From Candidatus Uhrbacteria bacterium (GTDB lineage: Bacteria > Patescibacteriota > Patescibacteriia > UBA9934 > GWF2-40-263): a stretch of DNA of 64,000 nucleotides. The stretch is taken from assembly GCA_016844925.1 (NCBI GenBank), contig JAERTI010000043.1:66642-130641 (forward strand), written 5' to 3'. Made by a program: the position numbers and the translations under genes. Of the stretch, positions 15,499 to 36,214 are shown piece after piece. The notes below the pieces were generated by a model. It did not search any database, was not told the origin of the DNA, and saw nothing but the letters and a program-made list of their open reading frames with translations. Numbering within the stretch: position 1 is the first letter of the stretch; each line of letters opens with the position of its first letter.

Positions 15499-15503
15499 TT
15501 TTT

Positions 15504-16037
15504 ATGGGATCTACGTCACGGCAAACAAAAGGATTTACTCTAGTGGAGCTTTTGATCGTTGTTGCAATTATTGGGATCCTTGTGGCGGTTGTTCTTGTGG
15601 CTCTTAACCCTGCACAGCGGTTTCAGCAGGCACGTGACGGCGTGAGGCAAAATGATGTGCAGGCAATTCTCTCGTCAATTAGATTGCATGAGGTGGATAA
15701 CGGTGAGCTGCTATCTGATATCGCGAACTTAACCGATGCGGATGTGTATATGGCGGTTGATGGGATTGGTATGAATAACGGTTGTGATGACAATAACGAT
15801 TACTGTTCAACAAACGTTTCTCTCGATACACACTGTGTCGACATCTCGGATCTTCTTGATGATGGGTATTTAGCAGAGATGCCTGTTAGTCCGGCGGGAG
15901 ATGTGACGTGGGATCGAGGTGAGCAAGATGGAAGAGAGGGGTCTGGTTATACAATATCGATCAGTCATGATGATATTGTGACGGTCAGGGCCTGTGAGAA
16001 TGAGGCCACAACAACAGAGATCGAAGTTTCCGGGTAA
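15504..16037 (+). CDS. type IV pilin, tandem paralog
   Basis: G|FTLVELLIVVAIIGIL N-terminus; conserved FQQARDxVRQNDVQ with the upstream pilin. Confidence 0.7.
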   Translation: MGSTSRQTKGFTLVELLIVVAIIGILVAVVLVALNPAQRFQQARDGVRQNDVQAILSSIRLHEVDNGELLSDIANLTDADVYMAVDGIGMNNGCDDNNDYCSTNVSLDTHCVDISDLLDDGYLAEMPVSPAGDVTWDRGEQDGREGSGYTISISHDDIVTVRACENEATTTEIEVSG

Positions 16038-16134
16038 GTAAAACATGGGTTTAACCCGTGTTTTTTGATTCTAAACAAGGGGAATTAACGCCTTGACCCA
16101 TGCGGCCGGATTCAGTACACTACTGTCGTCTTTT

Positions 16135-16211
16135 GGGCATGTAGCTCAGCTGGTTAGAGCGCATCCCTGATAAGGATGAGGTCGGAGGTTCGAGTCCTCC
16201 CATGCCCACCA
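16135..16211 (+). tRNA. tRNA-Ile(GAT), CCA encoded
   Basis: cloverleaf with anticodon loop cTGATAa; acceptor gggcatg/catgccc. Confidence 0.85.
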
Positions 16212-16217
16212 GAAGGC

Positions 16218-16292
16218 GCCGAGGTAGCTCAGGGGTAGAGCAGTGGACTGAAAATCCACGTGTCGTGAGTTCAAATCTCACCCTCGGCACCA
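16218..16292 (+). tRNA. tRNA-Phe(GAA), CCA encoded
   Basis: acceptor gccgagg/cctcggc, anticodon loop cTGAAAa. Confidence 0.85.
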
Positions 16293-16295
16293 TGG

Positions 16296-16327
16296 AAAAA
16301 CTCTCCTAGTCAGGAGAGTTTTTGCTT
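16296..16327 (+). terminator. rho-independent terminator after tRNAs
   Basis: ctctcct agtc aggagag hairpin followed by TTTTT. Confidence 0.6.
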
Positions 16328-16341
16328 TTCCACAGTTGTCG

Positions 16342-16370
16342 TTGACACGGCCCTGGGGGTCAGACACAAT
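16342..16370 (+). promoter_or_regulatory. candidate sigma70 promoter of thr leader
   Basis: TTGACA -35, 17-nt spacer, CACAAT -10-like, about 10 nt upstream of leader ATG. Confidence 0.35.
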
Positions 16371-16379
16371 AGGATTGTT

Positions 16380-16433
16380 ATGCACTTGAGCATCACCACA
16401 ACCACGACTACTACGACGACCCTTGGTCGTTGA
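16380..16433 (+). CDS. thrL: thr operon leader peptide (MHLSITTTTTTTTTLGR)
   Basis: AGGA RBS, 17-codon ORF with 9 consecutive Thr codons plus Ile, immediately upstream of thrA. Confidence 0.7.
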   Translation: MHLSITTTTTTTTTLGR

Positions 16434-16464
16434 GGTTCGTGTTGTTGGGAGGATTTAAAGACAA

Positions 16465-16495
16465 CCGCGGCCCTCAATGGGGTCCGTTTTATTTC
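16465..16495 (+). terminator. attenuator terminator
   Basis: cggccc..gggtccg hairpin followed by ttttatttct directly before thrA ATG. Confidence 0.4.
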
Positions 16496-16496
16496 T

Positions 16497-18929
16497 ATGA
16501 AAATATTGAAGTTTGGAGGGTCATCTGTTGCATCGGCAGAAAGGATTCGGTCGGTGGTGAACATTATTCGATCTCAGGATGATGAGAGTCTTGTTGTTGT
16601 CTGTTCTGCCCTTGGCGGAGTTACGGATAAGTTGATTGAAGCGAGTGGGCTGGCGGCGGCGGGCGACGATGCCTACCTTCGGGTCTTCGATGAGCTTTCT
16701 TCGCGTCACTTGGGGTGTGTGAACGAGCTTTTGGCTGGGCCTGAGCTTGAGGGGGCCAGGAAGCATCTTCAGGAACAGCTCGAGTCACTGGAAGAGGTCT
16801 TGCGCGGCATTTACTTGATTCAAGAATGCACTCTTCGTTCAAAAGATCTGGTGATGAGCTTTGGTGAGCGTCTGTCGAATTTTCTTGTATGTGAGCATCT
16901 TAAGCAGTTTGTCCCGGATGCTGTCATGCTCGATGCACGTCACGTAGTCAAGACGGACGACCAGTTTGGAAATGCGCGGGTTAGGATGAGTGAGAGTTTC
17001 CAAAATATTCGTAACCACTCCAATGGCTATGCACGGATCCGAGTGGTCACAGGGTTCATTGCTTCTACAGAGAAAGGGGAGACCACGACACTTGGTCGTG
17101 GAGGCTCAGATTACACAGCCTCTCTTTTTGGAGCCGCGCTTGGGGCAGAAGAGATTCAGATTTGGACGGATGTCGACGGGGTTCTCTCGGCCGACCCTCG
17201 AGTCGTGTCAGATGCTCAGCCCGTCTCCCACATGAGTTACGAGGAGGCCATGGAGATGTCACATTTTGGAGCAAAGGTGATTTACCCACCAACCATGCAA
17301 CCGGCATTAGATGCTGGTATTCCAATTCGGATCAAGAACACCTTTAACCCTCAGGTGGAAGGAACCCTTATCGGTGCACAGCAATCAGGGGGTGTTAATC
17401 AACCTGTGACAGGAATATCGTCGATTAAGGAAATAGCATTTATTCGCGTGCATGGCTCTGGGCTTGTGGGGGTTACTGGAACGGCTGGTCGGATGTTCTC
17501 TGCGCTCGCTCGGGCCGGAATCAACATCATCATGATTACACAGGGCTCTAGTGAACATTCGATTTGTTTTGCTGTAGGGCCGGGAGATGCGGAACGTTCC
17601 GTAGCAGCCATCAAGGAGGAATTTGCGCTGCAGATTCTCCAGAGGCAGATTGAAGAGATCTTAGTCGAGAAGGATTTGTCGATCGTGGCGGTGATTGGAG
17701 AGCGCATGCGGCAGACGCCGGGGATTAGCGGGAGACTGTTTGGGGCACTTGGTGACGCCGGGGTGAATGTGATTGCTATTGCCCAAGGTTCAAGTGAGCG
17801 AAATATCTCTATTGTGGTGAAGAAAGATCAGGTGGCAGGGGCTATGCAAGCCATTCATCAGGATTTCTTCGGTGATTCTAGGGGGGGAAAAACTCAGAAA
17901 TCTGACGCTCGCATATATCTTGTCGGAACGGGGCTTATCGGTTCAACATTGTTGAACCAGATCGCTTCACTTGCCAAGTCGACAGTGAGGGTTCATGGCT
18001 TAGCTGATTCACGGAATATGATGGTTTCTGATCGAGCGATCAATCCAGAGATGTGGAAGCAGGCTCTTGAGGCTGGTGAGCCAAGTAGCCTTGATTCGTT
18101 TATTGAACAGATGCTAGCTCATGACGGAGGTGTGAAGATATTTGTCGACTGTACGGCAAGTGAGGTGATCGCCAAGCGGTATCCAGAGATTCTTGCTGCA
18201 GGAGCGAAGATCGTGACACCAAATAAAAAAGCGGCGTCTGGTCCTCAAGAGGACTTCGACAAGATTGCTGATGCCCTTATGAGGGGTGACATGCGCCACG
18301 AGACAAATGTCGGCGCGGGGCTTCCGGTAATGTCAACGATTCGGTCGCTCAGAGAGACGGGGGATGAGATTCTTGAGATAAGCGGTGTGTTTTCAGGGAC
18401 ACTGTCGTATCTGTTCAATACATATGACGGGCACTCCTCATTTGCTGAGCTTGTTTCTCAGGCTCGTGAGAAGGGTTTCACGGAGCCAGATCCTCGTGAT
18501 GATCTTTCTGGCATGGATGTGGCACGTAAGCTTGTCGTGCTCGCGCGCGAGCTTGGTATGCGAGTGGAGTTGTCGGATGTAGAGGTGGAGAATCTAACGC
18601 CAGAGCCTTGTCGATCAATTGAGTCGATAGATGAATTCCTTGAGCGCCTTGAAGATTACGATGATGAGTTTGCGCAGAGAGCCCTGTCGGCTCAGGAGGG
18701 TGGAAAACGACTCCGGTACGTTGGATCAATTAAGGGAGGGGAGTTGTCGGTACAACTTAAAGCGGTTGGACCAGCGGCTTCTACGTACGGTCTATCAGGC
18801 TCTGACAACCTTGTCGCGATTCGGACGCGTCGTTATCATGATCGACCGCTCGTTATCCAGGGGCCAGGCGCTGGGGCGGAGGTGACGGCCGCTGGTGTAC
18901 TCACAGATATTCTTTCACTCACAACATAA
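16497..18929 (+). CDS. thrA: bifunctional aspartokinase/homoserine dehydrogenase
   Basis: N-terminal KFGGSSV aspartokinase, ACT region, C-terminal homoserine DH domain, 810 aa. Confidence 0.9.
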   Translation: MKILKFGGSSVASAERIRSVVNIIRSQDDESLVVVCSALGGVTDKLIEASGLAAAGDDAYLRVFDELSSRHLGCVNELLAGPELEGARKHLQEQLESLEEVLRGIYLIQECTLRSKDLVMSFGERLSNFLVCEHLKQFVPDAVMLDARHVVKTDDQFGNARVRMSESFQNIRNHSNGYARIRVVTGFIASTEKGETTTLGRGGSDYTASLFGAALGAEEIQIWTDVDGVLSADPRVVSDAQPVSHMSYEEAMEMSHFGAKVIYPPTMQPALDAGIPIRIKNTFNPQVEGTLIGAQQSGGVNQPVTGISSIKEIAFIRVHGSGLVGVTGTAGRMFSALARAGINIIMITQGSSEHSICFAVGPGDAERSVAAIKEEFALQILQRQIEEILVEKDLSIVAVIGERMRQTPGISGRLFGALGDAGVNVIAIAQGSSERNISIVVKKDQVAGAMQAIHQDFFGDSRGGKTQKSDARIYLVGTGLIGSTLLNQIASLAKSTVRVHGLADSRNMMVSDRAINPEMWKQALEAGEPSSLDSFIEQMLAHDGGVKIFVDCTASEVIAKRYPEILAAGAKIVTPNKKAASGPQEDFDKIADALMRGDMRHETNVGAGLPVMSTIRSLRETGDEILEISGVFSGTLSYLFNTYDGHSSFAELVSQAREKGFTEPDPRDDLSGMDVARKLVVLARELGMRVELSDVEVENLTPEPCRSIESIDEFLERLEDYDDEFAQRALSAQEGGKRLRYVGSIKGGELSVQLKAVGPAASTYGLSGSDNLVAIRTRRYHDRPLVIQGPGAGAEVTAAGVLTDILSLTT

Positions 18930-18933
18930 TCCT

Positions 18934-19974
18934 ATGGACAAAAAAATCCCTGTCGCCATTTTGGGCGCGACCGGCAGTGTCGGTCAGAAGTTTATCGAAC
19001 TGTTAAAAGATCATCCATGGTTTGAGATTGCAGCGCTCTGTGCATCTGAGCGCTCAGCTGGAAAGCCCTATCACGAGGCGGCCAACTGGTTTCAAGCCAG
19101 TGAGTTACCAAAACATATTGGAGAAATGATCGTTCAGCCGTGTGAACCATCTGTCCCGGGACGAATTGTGTTTTCTGGCTTGGACTCCAGTGTTGCTGGA
19201 GAGATAGAACAGGCCATGGCTAAGGCGGGGAAGATTGTCGTCTCAAACTCGAAGAACCATCGGATGCACGATGATGTCCCGCTCCTGGTTCCGGAGATCA
19301 ATGCTGATCACTTAGCGCTTCTTAAGAAGCAGGCTTTTGGTGACGGTATGATTGTGACTAACCCAAACTGCTCGACCATTGGGCTTGTTCTAGCTCTGAA
19401 GCCCCTTGTAGATGCGTTTGGTGTGCGTGAGGTGTCTGTTGTGACAATGCAAGCGCTCTCAGGTGCTGGGTATCCTGGGGTGGCTTCTCTCGACATCATT
19501 GATAATGCTGTTCCATATATCGGTGGGGAAGAGGATAAGATTGAAACAGAGCCCTTAAAGATTTTCGGGGATTTAATTAATGATCATGTAGAGCCAGCTG
19601 TAATGAACATCTCCGCAAGTTGCAATCGAATTGCCGTTGTGGATGGGCATATGGAGTGTGTGAGTGTGCGACTTGGTAGACAAGCGAGTGCAAAGGAGAT
19701 TATTGAGGCTTGGGAAGATTATCGTGCGGAGCCTCAGGAGATGGGATTGCCAACAGCACCAGGGCGACCTGTGCACTACCATCGTGAAGAGCATTATCCT
19801 CAACCACGTAAACATCGCATGCTCGATAAGGGGATGGCAGTATCTATTGGGCGTTTGCGTGAGTGTTCCATTCTAGAATGGAAGTTCACTTTGCTTTCAC
19901 ACAATACAATTCGAGGTGCGGCTGGTGGAGCGCTCTTAAACGCAGAGCTCATGGTCGAGATGGGACTTGTATGA
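18934..19974 (+). CDS. asd: aspartate-semialdehyde dehydrogenase
   Basis: ILGATGSVGQ NAD motif, NPNCSTI active-site Cys region. Confidence 0.9.
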   Translation: MDKKIPVAILGATGSVGQKFIELLKDHPWFEIAALCASERSAGKPYHEAANWFQASELPKHIGEMIVQPCEPSVPGRIVFSGLDSSVAGEIEQAMAKAGKIVVSNSKNHRMHDDVPLLVPEINADHLALLKKQAFGDGMIVTNPNCSTIGLVLALKPLVDAFGVREVSVVTMQALSGAGYPGVASLDIIDNAVPYIGGEEDKIETEPLKIFGDLINDHVEPAVMNISASCNRIAVVDGHMECVSVRLGRQASAKEIIEAWEDYRAEPQEMGLPTAPGRPVHYHREEHYPQPRKHRMLDKGMAVSIGRLRECSILEWKFTLLSHNTIRGAAGGALLNAELMVEMGLV

Positions 19975-20591
19975 TCATCTCACTGATAGGGATGAGTAAT
20001 TGTGGGAAATCGCATTGGTCAAAGAAACTTGAGGACGAGCGGGGGTATGAGCGTCGGTGTTGTGATGATTTGATTGCTGGGCAATTGAATGATCTGTTGC
20101 CTGAAGTTGATATTACTGACATGGATGCGTTTGCTGCCTGGATGGGGATGCCGCATGAGTTCGGCTATGCTGAGCGAGAGGGGGCGTACTTGGCCGGGGA
20201 AGAGGGGGCCCTGTTGGAGGCGGTGAAGGTGTCTCAGGGGGATGTAGTGATCGATACGACAGGAAGTGTCATCTACTTATCCGAGAATCGACTACGCCAC
20301 CTAAAGCAGATTTCGACAGTGGTTTATCTGTCGACGACAGACGACCAAGTCGCGTCAATGACAGAAAAGTTTTTTGCGTGCCCAAAGCCCCTTGTGTGGG
20401 GAGAGTGTTTTGACCAACGTTCGGTAGAATCGAATGAACAGGCGCTAAGAAGGTGCTATCCAGATTTATTACGATGGCGACGGGAGCGATATAAAACCCT
20501 TGCGGACGTCACGATTCCTTATGAGCGTTCTCATGACCCCAGCTATTCAGTCGACAAATTTCTTTATGATGTACTACAGCACAAACGATAA
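19971..20591 (+). CDS. P-loop kinase of shikimate-kinase-like fold; candidate alternative homoserine kinase
   Basis: IISLIGMSNCGKSH Walker A near N-terminus; ATGA overlap with asd stop; sits between asd and thrC. Confidence 0.5.
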   Translation: MIISLIGMSNCGKSHWSKKLEDERGYERRCCDDLIAGQLNDLLPEVDITDMDAFAAWMGMPHEFGYAEREGAYLAGEEGALLEAVKVSQGDVVIDTTGSVIYLSENRLRHLKQISTVVYLSTTDDQVASMTEKFFACPKPLVWGECFDQRSVESNEQALRRCYPDLLRWRRERYKTLADVTIPYERSHDPSYSVDKFLYDVLQHKR

Positions 20592-21843
20592 GTTTCACAG
20601 GGTCGACGCACGTCAGGCGGTGCTTGCAGGTCTTGCTCCAGACGGTGGGCTCTACATGCCCGAGTCGATTCCCAGATTGCCGCAACGATTCTTTGATGAG
20701 CTGAGAGGAAAGTCTTTGCAAGAGATAGGCTATATCGTCTCCAGCATTTTCTTGGGAGATGTTGTTCCAAGTGACAAGCTTCATGAGATTGTTGCCGGCA
20801 CGTTAGATTTTGAAATACCCCTAAGGCAGGTCGGGGAGGCTCAAGTCCTCGAGCTCTTTCACGGACCAACGCTCGCCTTTAAAGATGTGGGTGCCAGATT
20901 CATGGCTCGTCTCATGAGTTATTTTGTTGAGGAGGACGATCGTGAGCTTACAATCCTTGTTGCGACATCAGGAGATACAGGTTCTGCCGTGGCTCACGGA
21001 TTTCACAATGTTCCAGGGATTAAGGTTGTGGTGCTTTATCCAAGTGGGAAGGTGAGCGATCTGCAAGAGAAGCAGATGACAACCCTTGGAGGCAATATTA
21101 CGGCTCTTGAGGTGGATGGGGTGTTTGATGATTGCCAACGACTCGTGAAGAAGGCATTCGTCGATTCAGAGCTTTCACAGGCCCTCCGACTTTCTAGTGC
21201 GAACTCGATCAACATCGCCCGGCTGATCCCGCAGAGCTTTTATTACTTCTGGGCCATGGCGCAGTTACCCAAGGGGGAGCCACAGGTAATTACAGTTCCG
21301 TCTGGTAACTTTGGGAACCTCACTGCTGGTCTGATGGCAAAGCGTATGGGACTTCCAGTGGATAGGTTTATTGCTGCAACAAATGAGAACGATGTCGTAC
21401 CTGAATACCTCATCACGGAGCAATTCAATCCACGCCCATCTGTTGCAACGATCTCTAATGCTATGGACGTCGGCAATCCATCGAACTTCGTTCGCATGCT
21501 CGAGTTATACGATCGCAACGCTCAGAAGATGCGTGAGGACGTGGTGGGAATCAAGGTGAGTGAGAAGCAGACACGCGAGACAATCGCACGTGTTCATCGT
21601 GAGTATGGTTATGTGCTCGATCCGCACGGAGCTGTTGCCTACAACGCCTGCGAGCGATCTGTGAAACGAGGGGTGGTGATTGAGACTGCACATCCAGCAA
21701 AGTTTAAGGATGTGGTGGAGGAGGAGACGGGTGAACCTGTTGAGATTCCCGACAGTCTAGCTAAGTGCATGGAGAAGGAGAAGAAGAGTCAGAGAATTTC
21801 ATCTGACTTCACAGAGTTAAAACAGTTCCTACTTACTCGATAA
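20566..21843 (+). CDS. thrC: threonine synthase
   Basis: PLP-binding AFKD lysine motif, about 425 aa. Confidence 0.9.
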   Translation: MMYYSTNDKFHRVDARQAVLAGLAPDGGLYMPESIPRLPQRFFDELRGKSLQEIGYIVSSIFLGDVVPSDKLHEIVAGTLDFEIPLRQVGEAQVLELFHGPTLAFKDVGARFMARLMSYFVEEDDRELTILVATSGDTGSAVAHGFHNVPGIKVVVLYPSGKVSDLQEKQMTTLGGNITALEVDGVFDDCQRLVKKAFVDSELSQALRLSSANSINIARLIPQSFYYFWAMAQLPKGEPQVITVPSGNFGNLTAGLMAKRMGLPVDRFIAATNENDVVPEYLITEQFNPRPSVATISNAMDVGNPSNFVRMLELYDRNAQKMREDVVGIKVSEKQTRETIARVHREYGYVLDPHGAVAYNACERSVKRGVVIETAHPAKFKDVVEEETGEPVEIPDSLAKCMEKEKKSQRISSDFTELKQFLLTR

Positions 21844-21860
21844 CTAACGATAAGTAATAA

Positions 21861-21897
21861 CAAAAACACCTGCCATCGGGCAGGTGTTTTGAACTGA
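21861..21897 (+). terminator. rho-independent terminator after thrC
   Basis: acacctgcc atcg ggcaggtgt hairpin followed by TTTT. Confidence 0.6.
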
Positions 21898-22029: not shown

Positions 22030-23525
<1,496 letters not shown>

Positions 23526-23530
23526 ATATA

Positions 23531-25388: not shown

Positions 25389-26045
25389 ATGTCTAAAAAG
25401 AAGCAATTTGAAATCGTGACGATTTTTCCAGAGACAGTGGCGCCATACATTGAGGCGTCTATTTTGGGACGTGCCCAGAAGGATAATTTGATCCAGATTC
25501 AGGCACATGATTTACGTAATTGGACGCAGGACAAGCATCGAACCGTGGATGATACGCCTTATGGGGGTGGTGCTGGTATGGTGATGAAGGTAGAGCCGTT
25601 TGATAAAGCCGTAGAAGATTTGCGTGGAAAGGGGACAACCCGCGTGATCGTTACGAGCGCCTCGGGTAAGACGTTCACACAAGAGGATGCCAAGCGTCTG
25701 TCGGAATACGATCAACTTATTTTTCTCTGTGGGCGCTACGAGGGGATCGATCATCGCGTGCAGGAACACATTGCCGACGAGGCACTGTCGATTGGAAACT
25801 ACGTTCTCACCGGCGGGGAGCTTCCTGCGTTGGTTATGACTGATGCGATTGCACGTCTCGTGCCTGGGGTCATCGAGGCGGAGAGTCTAGAACAAGAGTC
25901 GCATGATCAGCAGGGGTATCTCGAGTATCCGCAATACACCAAACCAAGTACTTATAAAGATTGGGAGGTGCCTGAGGTGCTTCTTAGTGGTGATCACAAA
26001 AAGATTCATGACTGGCGGACTGAACAATCAGAACGAAACGACTAG
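25389..26045 (+). CDS. trmD: tRNA (guanine37-N1)-methyltransferase
   Basis: FPE, DTPYGGGAGMVM, CGRYEGIDHRV TrmD motifs. Confidence 0.9.
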   Translation: MSKKKQFEIVTIFPETVAPYIEASILGRAQKDNLIQIQAHDLRNWTQDKHRTVDDTPYGGGAGMVMKVEPFDKAVEDLRGKGTTRVIVTSASGKTFTQEDAKRLSEYDQLIFLCGRYEGIDHRVQEHIADEALSIGNYVLTGGELPALVMTDAIARLVPGVIEAESLEQESHDQQGYLEYPQYTKPSTYKDWEVPEVLLSGDHKKIHDWRTEQSERND

Positions 26046-32161: not shown

Positions 32162-33112
32162 CTACTTGCCACCGCCGCCGGAGCCGCGGGAGCGAGAGCT
32201 CGAGCCTCCGGAGCGGACGGACTTGCTGGGCTTGGAGCTGGAGCTCGATCGCGAGGACGTGGACTTCTTGGTGGAAGACCCGCTCGTGGACGAGGTGCTC
32301 TTGGTGCTCGAGGCCTTGGACCGGGTCGACTTCACGTAGGTGCTGCCGGTGGTCGACGCCTTGGTCGAGCTCGTCTTGTACGTGCTCGGCCGCGTGGTCT
32401 TGGTGGCCGTCTGCGAGCTCAGCGTGCTCTTGGACCCGACGTAGGTGTTGCGGGTGCTGTTGATCACCGTGACCGAGCGCACCGGGCGGCTGTAGTAGCT
32501 GCCGCCGTAGTACCCAGCGTTGTAGTAGCCCCAGCCGTAGCCGTAGTAGGGGCTGCGTCCGGGGGACAGCAGGTAGCCCCACAGGAAGCCACTCGTGAAG
32601 CCGCTGCTTCCGTGGTAGTGGTCGTGGTAGTAGTGGTTGTCGTACCCGCTGACGTAGTCGGGGTACCCACCGTAGATCTCCACGTCCTCGCTCTCGGTCG
32701 TGTGCTGGACCGTCAGCTCTGCCACGGCGGTGTAGCCGTCTTCCTTCTCCGGGGCGCTGGAGGGGTAGGCGATGAAGGCCAGGTTGATCTTCCCGTCCTT
32801 CTGCTCTTCCTCCACGGCCACGAAGTCCACGGAACCATCACCGTCGATGTCGACGTTGTTGATCCCGGTCTCGGGGTCGTTGATCTTGGCCTCGAGCTCC
32901 GGCATGTCCGAGATTTCCTCGGACTTGATGAGCTTGATGATCGTCTCCAGGTCGAAGGCGCTGGCGTCCAGGAGGAACACCTGGCCCTGGGCCTCGGTAC
33001 TGGTCGTCGTCGTGCTGCTCTTCTGCGGCGAGCTGTTGCTGCTGCTCGACGGCCCACAGGCCGTCATCATGGCCAGCGCCATCAGCGCTGCCAGCAGGTG
33101 ACTGATTCGCAT
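32162..33112 (-). CDS. lipoprotein with Gly/Tyr-rich and Ser/Thr/Lys-rich low-complexity regions
   Basis: lipobox LAMMTAC; GYYGGSYY and STKSTSS tracts. Confidence 0.5.
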   Translation of the reverse strand: MRISHLLAALMALAMMTACGPSSSSNSSPQKSSTTTTSTEAQGQVFLLDASAFDLETIIKLIKSEEISDMPELEAKINDPETGINNVDIDGDGSVDFVAVEEEQKDGKINLAFIAYPSSAPEKEDGYTAVAELTVQHTTESEDVEIYGGYPDYVSGYDNHYYHDHYHGSSGFTSGFLWGYLLSPGRSPYYGYGWGYYNAGYYGGSYYSRPVRSVTVINSTRNTYVGSKSTLSSQTATKTTRPSTYKTSSTKASTTGSTYVKSTRSKASSTKSTSSTSGSSTKKSTSSRSSSSSKPSKSVRSGGSSSRSRGSGGGGK

Positions 33113-35105: not shown

Positions 35106-36008
35106 TTAGTAGCTCGGGATCGAGGTGTGCGGCTTGACGCGCCGACATTCCGCGATCACGTGAGCCGGGAGGTCTTCCTCGCACTGGCAGTCAGTGCAGT
35201 AGGTGCGACCTTCCTTCAAGCGAGGGAAGGTGTTTCCCGGACGTTGGTTGTCACGTTGCCACTGGCGCTGCGCTTCAGGTCCGCTGGAGAGTGTGCCGCC
35301 GCATGAGCATTGCGTGGTCGCCCAAGCCTTGGCGCTGTTTCCACCAGACGCTGGGCGCGTATGGATCTTCCATCGGCGATTCTTGTGTGCCGCTGCGAGT
35401 ACCTCCTGAGGATCGAATGTTGCCGAGCTGGTCCACGGGAAGTCTTCCTTGCGAACTCGCGGCTGATGCGAGGTGCACCAGGCGTTGGTAGACGTGAATC
35501 CACGCTGCAGCTCGTCAATGGTGACGAGTACGGACTTTTCTGGAAACAAGATGGTCATGCATTGCTGCTCCCATGGATCCACGGTGCCGATCACAGACGA
35601 GATGTTGTGCTGCCGGCAAATCTGTACCAAGTGCACGTGGTCGATGCGCCTCAAGTTCGCCTGAGGGATCCGCTTGCTGGGCAAGCTAGAAAAGCGAACA
35701 GCAGGATGGCGATCTGCACGAGGCTTGGCTCGCAGCTCAACGAGAATCGCTAACGGGGCGTTCAGTCCCAGGATGAGCCGGGTGTCGAACCGTTCGTTCT
35801 GGGTGACTACCGCAACCTTCGGTCGGTTGGCCTCAGGGAGGTGATCGATGAGCTCTTCAATGCTCACGGCAGCTTCCAGGTCGGGAGCAAGAACGCGCGA
35901 TGCTCCTAGGGCTTGTGTGAGCCGAGCGATTTCAGCACGAGCCTTCAGGGCCTTGATGAGGGACATGTCCTCTCCTTGTGGGTGAACAACAAAAGACGTC
36001 TTCTCCAC
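35106..36008 (-). CDS. hypothetical protein
   Basis: long ORF with upstream TTGACA/TATTCT promoter; no family recognised. Confidence 0.35.
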   Translation of the reverse strand: MEKTSFVVHPQGEDMSLIKALKARAEIARLTQALGASRVLAPDLEAAVSIEELIDHLPEANRPKVAVVTQNERFDTRLILGLNAPLAILVELRAKPRADRHPAVRFSSLPSKRIPQANLRRIDHVHLVQICRQHNISSVIGTVDPWEQQCMTILFPEKSVLVTIDELQRGFTSTNAWCTSHQPRVRKEDFPWTSSATFDPQEVLAAAHKNRRWKIHTRPASGGNSAKAWATTQCSCGGTLSSGPEAQRQWQRDNQRPGNTFPRLKEGRTYCTDCQCEEDLPAHVIAECRRVKPHTSIPSY

Positions 36009-36214
36009 AGAAAAGACGCCTGGTATCGGAGGAAGTAGAAAACGACGGGGCCAGCGTGAAAATAAAATCAGACGCCGGGGCGTCGTATTCAGTCTTCCTT
36101 TGCATCTTTCCCTTGCGGGATGGAGTTCGCACCTTATCGATTACTCGACAGGTTGCGGGCAGGTCATAGGGCCAATTCCCTCACTGCTCTCTGAATACGT
36201 TTCTTCAGTTGTTG

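What the first reader, a model, noticed from the sequence alone, without database searches (positions are those of the whole stretch)
16342..16496. Threonine-codon leader peptide attenuator upstream of thrA
A 17-codon ORF MHLSITTTTTTTTTLGR, with nine consecutive Thr codons and one Ile codon, has an AGGA RBS and lies downstream of a TTGACA promoter. It is followed by a GC hairpin plus U-run that ends directly at the thrA start codon.

This is a textbook ribosome-mediated attenuation design like E. coli thrL. It is informative about the host lineage if the backbone is not proteobacterial.
Basis: partly seen in the sequence, partly recalled or inferred. Interest (0 to 1): 0.6.

Follow-up and report, generated by a model that had tools for sequence, protein, structure and literature searches.

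The report
Threonine leader-peptide attenuator in CPR bacterium
A tiny gene made almost entirely of threonine codons sits in front of the threonine-synthesis operon and very probably works as the textbook stalled-ribosome switch; the mechanism is ordinary, but the host is a Candidate Phyla Radiation bacterium, a group not known for making or regulating its own amino acids.

Summary
A TTGACA-17-CACAAT promoter (16342-16370) precedes a 17-codon ORF, MHLSITTTTTTTTTLGR (16380-16433). A hairpin and U-run (16467-16496) then end at the thrA ATG (16497).

Folding gives the classical three-state design. The free leader forms a 1:2 hairpin plus the terminator. A ribosome stalled on the middle Thr codons frees region 2, which forms an antiterminator over the terminator's 5' arm. 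The predicted terminator probability falls from 0.43 to 0.001 or less. A ribosome at the stop codon, which lies inside the antiterminator arm, restores the terminator.

Homologous leaders with the same promoter geometry, Thr/Ile runs and alternative helices precede thrA-asd-kinase-thrC operons in 14 other uncultured genomes. The 1:2 and terminator helices show compensatory changes.

TrmD and RNase III neighbours place these genomes in Patescibacteria (Uhrbacteria-like and Paceibacteria/Nomurabacteria-like).

Rfam's Thr_leader model does not reach threshold (17.9 bits against 55).

The "AGGA RBS" is probably coincidental. It is not conserved, and the leader AUG lies 8-9 nt after the -10 box in all 15 sequences, which implies a near-leaderless transcript.

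Analogous Thr/Ile leaders are common upstream of Bacteroidota thrA. Verdict: a real element, a new member of a known kind, of moderate interest.

The parts
16329..16334 (+). Conserved TCCACA motif 7-8 nt upstream of the -35 box. Its function is unknown; it may be an upstream promoter element or a regulator half-site.
   Evidence: The pattern TCCACA-N5-10-TTGAC occurs once in the 64-kb window. Among the fetched loci it falls at the thrA promoter of the clade members, including L002, which has no leader.
16342..16370 (+). Sigma-70-type promoter: TTGACA (16342-16347), 17-nt spacer, CACAAT (16365-16370).
   Evidence: Promoter scan, 10 of 12 matches. TTGAC and the AAT of the -10 box are invariant, and the spacing is conserved, in all 15 homologous leaders.
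16377..16377 (+). Inferred transcription start: a purine, the 7th nt after the -10 box and 3 nt before the leader AUG. This is an inference, not a mapped site.
   Evidence: The gap from the -10 box to the ATG is 8-9 nt in all 15 sequences. In the eight clade sequences parsed (window, L081, L084, L087, L088, L090, L171, L173) the 7th nt after the -10 box is always A or G. No Shine-Dalgarno motif is conserved.
16380..16433 (+). Leader peptide ORF (thrL-like), MHLSITTTTTTTTTLGR plus stop. Regulatory codons: Ile 16392-16394 and nine Thr 16395-16421.
   Evidence: Homologous Thr/Ile-rich ORFs occupy the same position in L081-L088, L090, L171, L173 and group 2.
16396..16448 (+). 1:2 hairpin (anti-antiterminator, possibly a pause hairpin). 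The Thr-codon region (16396-16421) pairs with region 2 (16425-16448).
   Evidence: It is part of the minimum-free-energy fold of the leader: -39.4 kcal/mol, z = -2.56. The leader truncated before region 3 (16376-16465) folds to -27.3 kcal/mol, mostly from this hairpin. Its two helices are about 90% paired, with 9 pairs changed on both sides, on the model-fitted alignment.
16429..16478 (+). 2:3 antiterminator. Region 2 (16429-16446, containing the leader stop codon UGA) pairs with region 3 (16460-16478), which contains the terminator's 5' arm.
   Evidence: -17.6 kcal/mol. It is the minimum-free-energy fold when a ribosome masks the Thr codons. 85.9% of cells pair, against 28-49% when the partner is slid, on an alignment not fitted to this helix.
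16467..16496 (+). 3:4 intrinsic terminator: stem GCGGCCCU/GGGG(U)CCGU (16467-16487) and the U-rich tail UUUUAUUUCU, which ends one base before the thrA ATG.
   Evidence: Terminator scan. Fold of -11 kcal/mol. Four of 7 stem pairs change on both sides across relatives.
16497..18929 (+). thrA, bifunctional aspartate kinase/homoserine dehydrogenase I, 810 aa.
   Evidence: NCBIfam NF006959, 963 bits. The N-terminus MKILKFGG is conserved from the relatives to E. coli.
18934..19974 (+). asd, aspartate-semialdehyde dehydrogenase (archaeal type), 346 aa.
   Evidence: TIGR00978, 450 bits. The start was set from homologous gene calls.
19971..20591 (+). P-loop, shikimate-kinase-like protein, 206 aa; probably a non-canonical homoserine kinase.
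   Evidence: Weak hit to NF040667. ThrA-SKI/AAA_33 fusion proteins exist (P0087, P0114). The gene keeps its operon position in 18 loci.
20533..21843 (+). thrC, threonine synthase, 436 aa, followed by an intrinsic terminator near 21863-21891.
   Evidence: TIGR00260, 306 bits; sequence read.

Best explanation
This is a ribosome-mediated (leader-peptide) transcription attenuator. It makes expression of the thrA-asd-kinase-thrC operon depend on the supply of charged tRNA-Thr and, through one codon, tRNA-Ile.

How it most likely works:
1. RNA polymerase starts about 3 nt before the leader AUG, and a ribosome loads on this near-leaderless 5' end.
2. When Thr-tRNA is plentiful, the ribosome runs to the UGA stop codon. 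That codon lies inside the 5' arm of the antiterminator, so region 2 is blocked. If no ribosome is present, region 2 is instead held by the Thr-codon region in the 1:2 hairpin.
3. In either case regions 3 and 4 fold into the terminator hairpin, and transcription stops at the U-run just before thrA.
4. When Thr-tRNA is scarce, the ribosome stalls on the nine Thr codons and covers region 1. Region 2 pairs with region 3 (UGAGG with CCUCA, and GUGUUGUU with the ACAAC-containing stretch upstream of the terminator). The terminator's 5' arm is sequestered and polymerase reads into thrA.

Because the terminator's U-tract is also the 10 nt directly upstream of the thrA AUG, the same hairpin may also reduce thrA translation initiation. 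This last point is inferred only.

Shown by computation: the sequence features, the alternative structures and their predicted switching, and the conservation and covariation in relatives. Inferred: the transcription start, translation of the leader, and termination in vivo.
For: - The sequence features sit at exact coordinates.
- The operon is thrA-asd-kinase-thrC.
- Free RNA folds into the 1:2 hairpin plus the terminator at -39.4 kcal/mol, z = -2.56.
- With the 5' part removed or masked, the 2:3 antiterminator is the minimum-free-energy fold.
- Equilibrium probability of the terminator in the window: 0.43 free, 0.000-0.004 with a ribosome on Thr codons 2-7 of the run, 0.49 at the stop codon. 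The same switch appears in 8 relatives. Only 6 of 200 dinucleotide shuffles of the segment between the stalled ribosome and the terminator give a value as low.
- The stop codon lies inside the antiterminator arm in 7 of 7 sequences. The pair just 5' of it is U:A, G:C or C:G in different lineages.
- Homologous leaders occur in relatives with ThrA identity from 92% down to 43%: L081-L088, L090, L171, L173, and group 2 (L139, L031, L122, L119, L051, L137, L141).
- A covariance model built from 6 sequences finds held-out members at 20-50 bits (L173, the weakest, at E = 0.12; the others at E of 0.002 or lower). Plus-strand matches fall immediately upstream of thrA; the few minus-strand matches lie in the same leader regions or just across the thrA start.
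- On that alignment the 1:2 and 3:4 helices are 89.6% paired. 13 of 28 pairs change on both sides. The covariation score is 0.291 against 0.163 in shuffles (0 of 500 reach it) and at most 0.086 when partners are slid.
- The genome uses intrinsic terminators elsewhere: after tRNA-Phe, after the pilin gene and after thrC.
Against: - There is no expression data, so the transcription start, leader translation and termination are all inferred.
- Rfam's Thr_leader model scores only 17.9 bits (gathering score 55, E = 3.1). It is not a detectable homologue of the enterobacterial family.
- Covariation in the antiterminator itself is thin. Only 2 of 14 pairs change on both sides, no better than shuffles, because the helix is highly conserved.
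- In L090, L171, L173 and part of group 2, the unconstrained minimum-free-energy fold keeps the antiterminator, so those versions depend on the ribosome at the stop codon rather than on 1:2 pairing.
- The alignment used for one search was fitted to the structure tested.
- The terminator is modest (-11 kcal/mol, with a bulged stem).
- Several clade members have no leader (L089, L001, L002, L172), so the element is dispensable.
Confidence: 0.85

Rival explanations
1. This is a translational rather than transcriptional attenuator. The 3:4 hairpin and U-tract mainly hide the thrA initiation region, and ribosome stalling on the Thr codons opens it. Transcription is not terminated.
For: The hairpin ends 10 nt before the thrA AUG, inside a ribosome footprint, and thrA has no Shine-Dalgarno motif. 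In the CPR clade the U-run starts only 7-10 nt before the ATG, against typically 17 nt or more in Bacteroidota.
Against: The hairpin is followed by a canonical U-run in all 15 sequences. In group 2 the U-run lies 20-29 nt upstream of thrA, so it cannot mask the start codon there. The genome uses the same hairpin-plus-U design as true terminators after tRNA-Phe and thrC. The two modes are not exclusive.
Confidence: 0.08
2. The short ORF is not translated, since it has no ribosome-binding site. The conserved RNA is then regulated by something other than a ribosome, such as a protein binding the TCCACA/promoter region or an RNA-binding factor. Alternatively it is simply a constitutive partial terminator.
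For: No Shine-Dalgarno motif is conserved upstream of the leader AUG. A conserved TCCACA motif upstream of the promoter persists even in L002, which lacks the leader.
Against: The reading frame, the AUG and an in-frame run of Thr/Ile codons are kept in all 15 sequences while the nucleotides and the other residues change. The Thr run uses all four ACN codons. The stop codon holds a fixed position inside the antiterminator arm. No gene checked in this genome has a Shine-Dalgarno motif, so its absence says nothing. An AUG 8-9 nt after the -10 box is the geometry of leaderless initiation, which has been documented for leader peptides in Deinococcus deserti (PMC4007540) and mycobacteria (bioRxiv 10.1101/834739). 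No T-box or riboswitch match appeared in the Rfam E-value scan.
Confidence: 0.05
3. It is a chance or degenerate feature: a Thr-rich pseudo-ORF next to hairpins that only terminate the upstream tRNA-Ile/tRNA-Phe genes.
For: The element lies 85 nt downstream of tRNA-Phe, and some relatives (L089) go straight from the tRNA terminator to thrA.
Against: The tRNA genes have their own strong terminator at about 16297-16330, upstream of the promoter. In L084-L087 the same leader follows a maf gene, not tRNAs. The expected number of nine-codon Thr runs is 6e-7. The element is conserved across two CPR lineages.
Confidence: 0.02

Closest known systems
E. coli thrL / thr operon attenuator (Rfam RF00506, Thr_leader)
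   Same: A short ORF rich in Thr (and Ile) codons lies between the promoter and thrA. It has the 1:2, 2:3 and 3:4 alternative helices, an intrinsic terminator before thrA, and the same regulated enzyme. Read directly from NC_000913.3: thrL at 190-255 ([21 protein letters not shown]), a terminator at about 274-310, and thrA at 337.
   Different: No detectable sequence or structure homology: RF00506 scores 17.9 bits here against a threshold of 55, and my clade model scores 12 bits on E. coli. In E. coli, 26 nt carrying a Shine-Dalgarno motif separate the U-run from thrA; here the U-run abuts the ATG. E. coli thrL lies roughly 50 nt downstream of a promoter-like TTGACT-17-TAACCA read from the sequence; here the AUG is 9 nt after the -10 box. 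The peptide here has 9 Thr and 1 Ile, against 8 Thr and 4 Ile. The operon here is thrA-asd-SKI-like kinase-thrC, against thrABC in E. coli (from my own knowledge). The host is CPR, not a gammaproteobacterium.
Thr/Ile leader peptides upstream of thrA in Bacteroidota and Ignavibacteriota
   Same: I found these in 80 of 162 scorable thrA loci, 15 of which are the CPR loci themselves; 65 of the 80 have a hairpin plus U-run. An example is MITIITSTTTTTTGVKTGGR in Mucilaginibacter. The logic is the same, the ThrA proteins are the closest outside the clade (about 45-50% identity), and the clade model gives weak hits of 17-25 bits at these sites. From memory: Vitreschak et al. 2004 (FEMS Microbiol Lett 234:357) reported candidate attenuators in Bacteroidetes/Chlorobi. 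That paper is not held here.
   Different: These loci do not share the conserved TTGACA-17-nAnAAT promoter of the CPR leaders (read from L004, L032, L069, L096). Their peptides are longer and usually richer in Ile. The U-run typically starts 17 nt or more before thrA. The operon lacks asd and the SKI-like kinase.
Leaderless leader-peptide attenuators of Deinococcus deserti and mycobacteria
   Same: The leader ORF begins at or within 1-3 nt of the transcript's 5' end and has no Shine-Dalgarno motif. D. deserti has 14 such predicted leader peptides, including one with the start site at -1 (PMC4007540). Mycobacteria have polycysteine leaderless short ORFs acting as Cys-responsive attenuators (bioRxiv 10.1101/834739).
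   Different: In those organisms the start sites were mapped experimentally; here the start is inferred from promoter geometry only. The amino acids, operons and phyla also differ.

Membership tests
Rfam RF00506 Thr_leader | Covariance-model score at or above the gathering threshold (55 bits) | tested here: not met
   17.9 bits, E = 3.1, at 16384-16495 on the plus strand. The gathering-threshold scan of the whole window gave no hit.
Leader-peptide (ribosome-mediated) transcription attenuators of amino-acid operons (trpL/thrL/hisL/pheL/leuL type) | A short ORF with tandem codons for the end-product amino acid, placed between the promoter and the first gene of the cognate biosynthetic operon | tested here: met
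   17 codons, 9 consecutive Thr plus 1 Ile. The promoter is at 16342-16370 and thrA at 16497.
Leader-peptide (ribosome-mediated) transcription attenuators of amino-acid operons (trpL/thrL/hisL/pheL/leuL type) | An intrinsic terminator (GC-rich hairpin plus U-run) between the leader ORF and the structural gene | tested here: met
   Stem at 16467-16487, tail UUUUAUUUCU. It is present in all 15 homologous leaders. Actual termination was not tested.
Leader-peptide (ribosome-mediated) transcription attenuators of amino-acid operons (trpL/thrL/hisL/pheL/leuL type) | An antiterminator helix mutually exclusive with the terminator, favoured when a ribosome stalls on the regulatory codons | tested here: met
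   The 2:3 helix (16429-16478, -17.6 kcal/mol) contains the terminator's 5' arm. The terminator probability goes 0.43, then 0.001 or less, then 0.49 for the free, stalled and stop states. 85.9% of cells pair in 14 sequences, against 28-49% when slid. This is thermodynamic prediction only.
Leader-peptide (ribosome-mediated) transcription attenuators of amino-acid operons (trpL/thrL/hisL/pheL/leuL type) | A 1:2 helix in which the regulatory-codon region sequesters the antiterminator's 5' arm, and a stop codon placed so that a terminating ribosome blocks region 2 | tested here: met
   The 1:2 hairpin spans 16396-16448. The UGA lies inside the antiterminator arm in 7 of 7 sequences. Helices 1 and 2 are about 90% paired, with 9 covarying pairs.
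Leader-peptide (ribosome-mediated) transcription attenuators of amino-acid operons (trpL/thrL/hisL/pheL/leuL type) | Readthrough increases in vivo when the cognate aminoacyl-tRNA is limiting, and depends on leader translation | not testable with these tools
Leaderless leader-peptide attenuators (Deinococcus, Actinobacteria) | The transcription start lies at or within a few nt of the leader start codon, with no Shine-Dalgarno motif | tested here: inconclusive
   The gap from the -10 hexamer to the AUG is 8-9 nt in 15 of 15 sequences. In the eight clade sequences parsed there is a purine at the 7th nt, and no Shine-Dalgarno motif is conserved. The start site itself is not mapped.

The most novel reading that the evidence does not exclude
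This is one member of a previously undescribed, conserved family of threonine-sensing, near-leaderless leader-peptide attenuators. The family controls a thrA-asd-(SKI-like homoserine kinase)-thrC module in at least two distant Candidate Phyla Radiation lineages (Uhrbacteria-like and Paceibacteria/Nomurabacteria-like).

If it functions as predicted, three things follow:
- Some of these reduced-genome bacteria make threonine de novo.
- They tune that synthesis to tRNA-Thr charging.
- They rely on tight transcription-translation coupling without Shine-Dalgarno initiation. One hairpin and its U-tract would serve both as the terminator and as the thrA initiation region.
Probability: 0.55. Interest if true: 0.5.

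Novelty: new member of a known kind. Interest (0 to 1): 0.4.

Why it matters
The mechanism is the textbook one, so nothing new about attenuation itself is learned. The value lies in where it occurs.

CPR/Patescibacteria are generally described as lacking amino-acid biosynthesis (from my own knowledge). Almost nothing is known about their cis-regulation. I found no paper in the library combining the CPR with leader-peptide attenuation.

A conserved, sequence-identifiable attenuator gives three things:
- A cheap marker that these lineages keep, and bother to regulate, a complete Asp-to-Thr pathway.
- Indirect evidence for coupled transcription and translation, and for Shine-Dalgarno-independent (near-leaderless) initiation, in the CPR.
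- A seed alignment for an RNA family that Rfam's Thr_leader model misses.

It also flags annotation errors. Public gene calls either truncate thrA or extend it into the attenuator.

Tried and rejected
- RNAalifold on a MAFFT alignment of the region 2-3 segments gave no consensus structure. Small indels put the helices out of register. I replaced it with per-sequence constrained folding and a covariance-model alignment.
It was useful for the Bacteroidota comparison and for group 2, but not for close relatives. Those came from exact-protein look-ups.
- I checked a second poly-Thr run (32611-32643, minus strand) as a possible second leader. It is an out-of-frame reading of NAC codons in a Tyr/His/Asn/Asp-rich ORF, so I rejected it.
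- The 84-aa antisense ORF at 16310-16564 (poly-Val) is the mirror image of the Thr codons and not a gene.
- T-box, riboswitch or other Rfam families in 15500-17500: only the two tRNAs reach threshold.
- The odd sequence upstream of thrA in L001 and L002 gave no Rfam or ARAGORN explanation beyond one tRNA-Phe.
- Vitreschak et al. 2004 could not be read, so its content is cited from memory only.
- A 16S-based classification could not be done because no rRNA reference set is available. Lineage rests on the names of TrmD, ThrA and RNase III relatives.

Full report
**1. What is in the sequence**

Reading 16100-16700 shows the following, in order on the plus strand:
- tRNA-Ile(GAU) at 16135-16211 and tRNA-Phe(GAA) at 16218-16292.
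- Their own strong terminator (GGAAAAACUCUCC...GGAGAGUUUUUGCUUUU, about 16297-16330).
- A TCCACA motif at 16329-16334.
- A promoter: TTGACA at 16342-16347, a 17-nt spacer, and CACAAT at 16365-16370 (10 of 12 matches).
- An ORF from ATG 16380 to TGA 16431-16433 encoding MHLSITTTTTTTTTLGR.
- A hairpin at 16467-16487 followed by UUUUAUUUCU.
- The ATG of an 810-aa ORF at 16497.

That ORF is ThrA: the NCBIfam equivalog for aspartate kinase/homoserine dehydrogenase I scores 963 bits against a cut-off of 726. It is followed by:
- asd at 18934-19974;
- a 206-aa P-loop, shikimate-kinase-like gene at 19971-20591;
- thrC at 20533-21843;
- another intrinsic terminator.

A run of nine in-frame ACN codons is expected 6e-7 times in the window.

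**2. Alternative RNA structures**

The leader RNA (16377-16496) folds to -39.4 kcal/mol (z = -2.56). The fold is a long 1:2 hairpin plus the terminator. In the 1:2 hairpin the Thr codons (16396-16421) pair with 16425-16448.

When the 5' part is absent or masked, the minimum-free-energy fold is a 2:3 antiterminator. In it, 16429-16446 pairs with 16460-16478 at -17.6 kcal/mol, and the 3' strand includes the terminator's 5' arm.

I computed the equilibrium probability of the terminator stem under three ribosome positions, taking the footprint to +13 nt from the A-site codon:

| State | P(terminator) |
|---|---|
| Free RNA | 0.43 |
| Ribosome on the Ile codon | 0.05 |
| Ribosome on Thr codons 2-7 of the run | 0.000-0.004 |
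| Ribosome at the stop codon | 0.49 |

Only 6 of 200 dinucleotide shuffles of the segment between the stalled ribosome and the terminator give a stalled-state value as low.

The leader's stop codon lies inside the antiterminator's 5' arm (UGAGG pairs with CCUCA). A terminating ribosome therefore physically prevents antitermination. This is the classical trp/thr logic.

**3. Comparative evidence**

ThrA relatives were retrieved by exact-protein look-up. The leaders found upstream of thrA were:

| Locus | ThrA identity to window | Leader peptide |
|---|---|---|
| L081-L083 (three independent assemblies) | 92% | same peptide as the window |
| L084, L085 | 75% | MIIITITTAITTANGR |
| L086 | 76% | MIIITTTTTIATAHGR |
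| L087 | 75% | MHLTSTTTTTTTGTRL |
| L088 | 70% | MNKGLLTTTTTTTGYRL |
| L090 | 55% | MRSMLTTPTTTTNSFGFVL |
| L171 | 56% | MVLFSTITTTTQKI |
| L173 | 54% | MKAKGTTTTTAHRA |

A second group has poly-Thr leaders such as MIRRLLQTTTTTTTTTSGG, with the same UGA(G/C)GUUUGUUGUG ... CACAACCGACCUCAG core. It comprises L139, L031, L122, L119, L051, L137 and L141, with ThrA identity of 43-45%.

All of these show the stalled-versus-stop switch in silico.

I built a covariance model from six sequences. Its results on 1.25 Mb of fetched loci were:
- L171 at 50.5 bits, L090 at 32.7 bits and L173 at 20 bits (E = 0.12), all held out of the model.
- Group 2 at 27-44 bits.
- Every plus-strand match lies immediately upstream of thrA. 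The few minus-strand matches lie in the same leader regions or just across the thrA start.

On the resulting 14-sequence alignment the 1:2 and 3:4 helices behave as follows:
- 89.6% of cells are paired.
- 13 of 28 pairs change on both sides.
- The covariation score is 0.291, against 0.163 in shuffles (0 of 500 reach it) and at most 0.086 when partners are slid.
- Caveat: the alignment was fitted to this structure.

The antiterminator was not used for fitting:
- 85.9% of cells are paired, against 28-49% when slid.
- Only 2 of 14 pairs covary, because the helix is nearly invariant.
- The pair just 5' of the stop codon is C:G in 4 sequences, U:A in 3 and G:C in 2.

Some clade members have no leader: L089, L001, L002 and L172.

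**4. Promoter geometry and the 'RBS'**

In all 15 leaders the promoter is TTGAC(A/T), 16-17 nt, a -10 hexamer, then 8-9 nt to the ATG. In the eight clade sequences parsed the 7th nt after the -10 box is always a purine.

AGGA occurs only in the window and its 92% relative, and it sits upstream of the inferred start site. None of 16 gene starts examined in the window has a Shine-Dalgarno motif, although the 16S rRNA ends in GGAUCACCUCCUUUCU.

I therefore infer a transcript with a 5' UTR of about 3 nt, translated in leaderless fashion. This is as documented for leader peptides of Deinococcus deserti (PMC4007540) and for mycobacterial short ORFs (bioRxiv 10.1101/834739). thrA itself also lacks a Shine-Dalgarno motif. 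Its 5' flank is the terminator's U-tract, so the hairpin might also lower thrA initiation. That point is inference only.

**5. Host lineage**

- The TrmD protein encoded at 25389-26042 has as its named closest relatives (66-77% identity) only 'Candidatus Uhrbacteria', 'Patescibacteria group' and 'Candidatus Parcubacteria' proteins.
- The 75% ThrA relative is labelled Parcubacteria group (NQV89298.1).
- Two GTDB representative genomes with 46-56% ThrA identity are Uhrbacteria MAGs.
- The contig context is conserved across independent assemblies: type IV pilus genes, tRNA-Ile and tRNA-Phe, the thr operon, 16S rRNA, a KH-domain gene and pyrD.
- For group 2, the RNase III gene next to the L139 leader is identical to a 'Patescibacteria group' protein. 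It is 83-90% identical to Paceibacterota, Nomurabacteria and Minisyncoccia proteins.
- Both groups share the operon thrA-asd-SKI-like kinase-thrC. The Bacteroidota loci lack asd and the kinase.

The element therefore belongs to a family spread over at least two CPR lineages.

**6. Comparison with known systems**

- Rfam Thr_leader scores 17.9 bits against a threshold of 55.
- My model scores 12 bits on the E. coli leader.
- E. coli thrL, read from NC_000913.3, is 21 codons with 8 Thr and 4 Ile. It lies well downstream of its promoter. Its terminator is separated from thrA by 26 nt carrying a Shine-Dalgarno motif.
- The design is the same, but homology is not detectable.
- Analogous Thr/Ile leaders are common upstream of thrA in the sampled loci. 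I found them in 80 of 162 scorable loci, 65 with a terminator. Fifteen of the 80 are the CPR loci themselves; most of the rest carry Bacteroidota or Ignavibacteriota labels. Non-proteobacterial thr attenuation is therefore not new in kind.
- The literature held here describes such attenuators as widespread in Gram-negative bacteria (PMC7298713). It notes few cases outside Proteobacteria and Actinobacteria (PMC2965389, PMC3082878).
- I found nothing linking them to the CPR.

**7. Verdict**

This is a real, well-supported Thr (plus Ile) leader-peptide attenuator. The mechanism is textbook, which makes it a new member of a known kind. It is notable for three things:
- its host lineage;
- its near-leaderless leader ORF;
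- its very compact layout, 155 nt from the -35 box to the thrA ATG.

Confidence in the mechanism is about 0.85. All steps after the sequence and folding analysis remain inferred: the start site, translation of the leader, and termination in vivo.

Noticed in passing
window 19971-20591 (+): The third gene of the thr operon is a 206-aa P-loop protein of the shikimate-kinase/AAA_33 type, not a GHMP-type ThrB. It gives a weak hit to NCBIfam NF040667 'homoserine kinase (Desulfo type)': 39 bits against a cut-off of 197. Some ThrA homologues carry a fused PF01202 or PF13671 domain (P0087, P0114). It is probably a non-canonical homoserine kinase. The thrA-asd-kinase-thrC order is kept in 18 fetched loci.
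   Followed up: partly
window 16329-16334 (+): A TCCACA motif lies 7-8 nt upstream of the -35 box. It is conserved at the thrA promoters of the clade, including L002, which lacks the leader. The pattern occurs only once in the 64-kb window. It may be a regulator site or an upstream promoter element; its function is unknown.
   Followed up: partly
window, 16 gene starts between 611 and 25389; 16S 3' end near 22031: No Shine-Dalgarno-like motif lies upstream of any of the 16 genes checked, although the 16S rRNA keeps the CCUCC anti-SD tail. Several starts sit close to TATAAT-like hexamers, which suggests widespread leaderless or SD-independent initiation in this organism.
   Followed up: partly
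window 22031-23527 (-): A complete 16S rRNA gene lies convergent with thrC, with no 23S rRNA adjacent. This is an unlinked rRNA gene. The same arrangement appears in L081 and L089.
   Followed up: no
window, about 28000 onward: G+C rises from 0.46-0.53 (1-28 kb) to 0.54-0.64 (28-64 kb). The high-GC part carries a spermidine-synthase-like gene, DUF350, DUF2617 and a radical SAM gene. It could be a genomic island or an assembly join.
   Followed up: partly
window 36099-36201 (-): A SAM-I riboswitch (55.5 bits, above the gathering score) lies upstream of the ORF at 35106-36008 (minus strand), which has no Pfam match.
   Followed up: no
L002 283-676 (also L001, about 1000-1200): In two relatives without a leader, tRNA-Phe is followed by a unit of about 186 nt, repeated twice in tandem in L002. 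The unit contains GC-rich hairpins and ends with a copy of the tRNA-Phe 3' end (…CCUGGCUCUCGGCACCA) plus the same terminator. There is no Rfam or ARAGORN match. It may be an integration-site duplication or an unknown structured RNA.
   Followed up: partly
window 32611-32643 (-): An 11-codon poly-Thr run, which reads as poly-Val on the plus strand. It is an out-of-frame reading of NAC codons in a Tyr/His/Asn/Asp- and Ser-rich lipoprotein-like ORF (32162-33112, minus strand). It is not a second leader.
   Followed up: yes
window 16497-16553; L086 6001-6072: Public gene calls mis-set the thrA start around the attenuator. The identical protein on record (P0001, 791 aa) starts 19 codons late at a GTG. 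P0004 (835 aa) extends 24 codons upstream through the terminator into the leader.
   Followed up: yes
L089, L172, L001, L002 (upstream of thrA): Several members of the same ThrA clade (56-61% identity) have no leader peptide. In L089 thrA follows the tRNA-Phe terminator within about 25 nt. The attenuator has therefore been lost or gained repeatedly within the lineage.
   Followed up: partly
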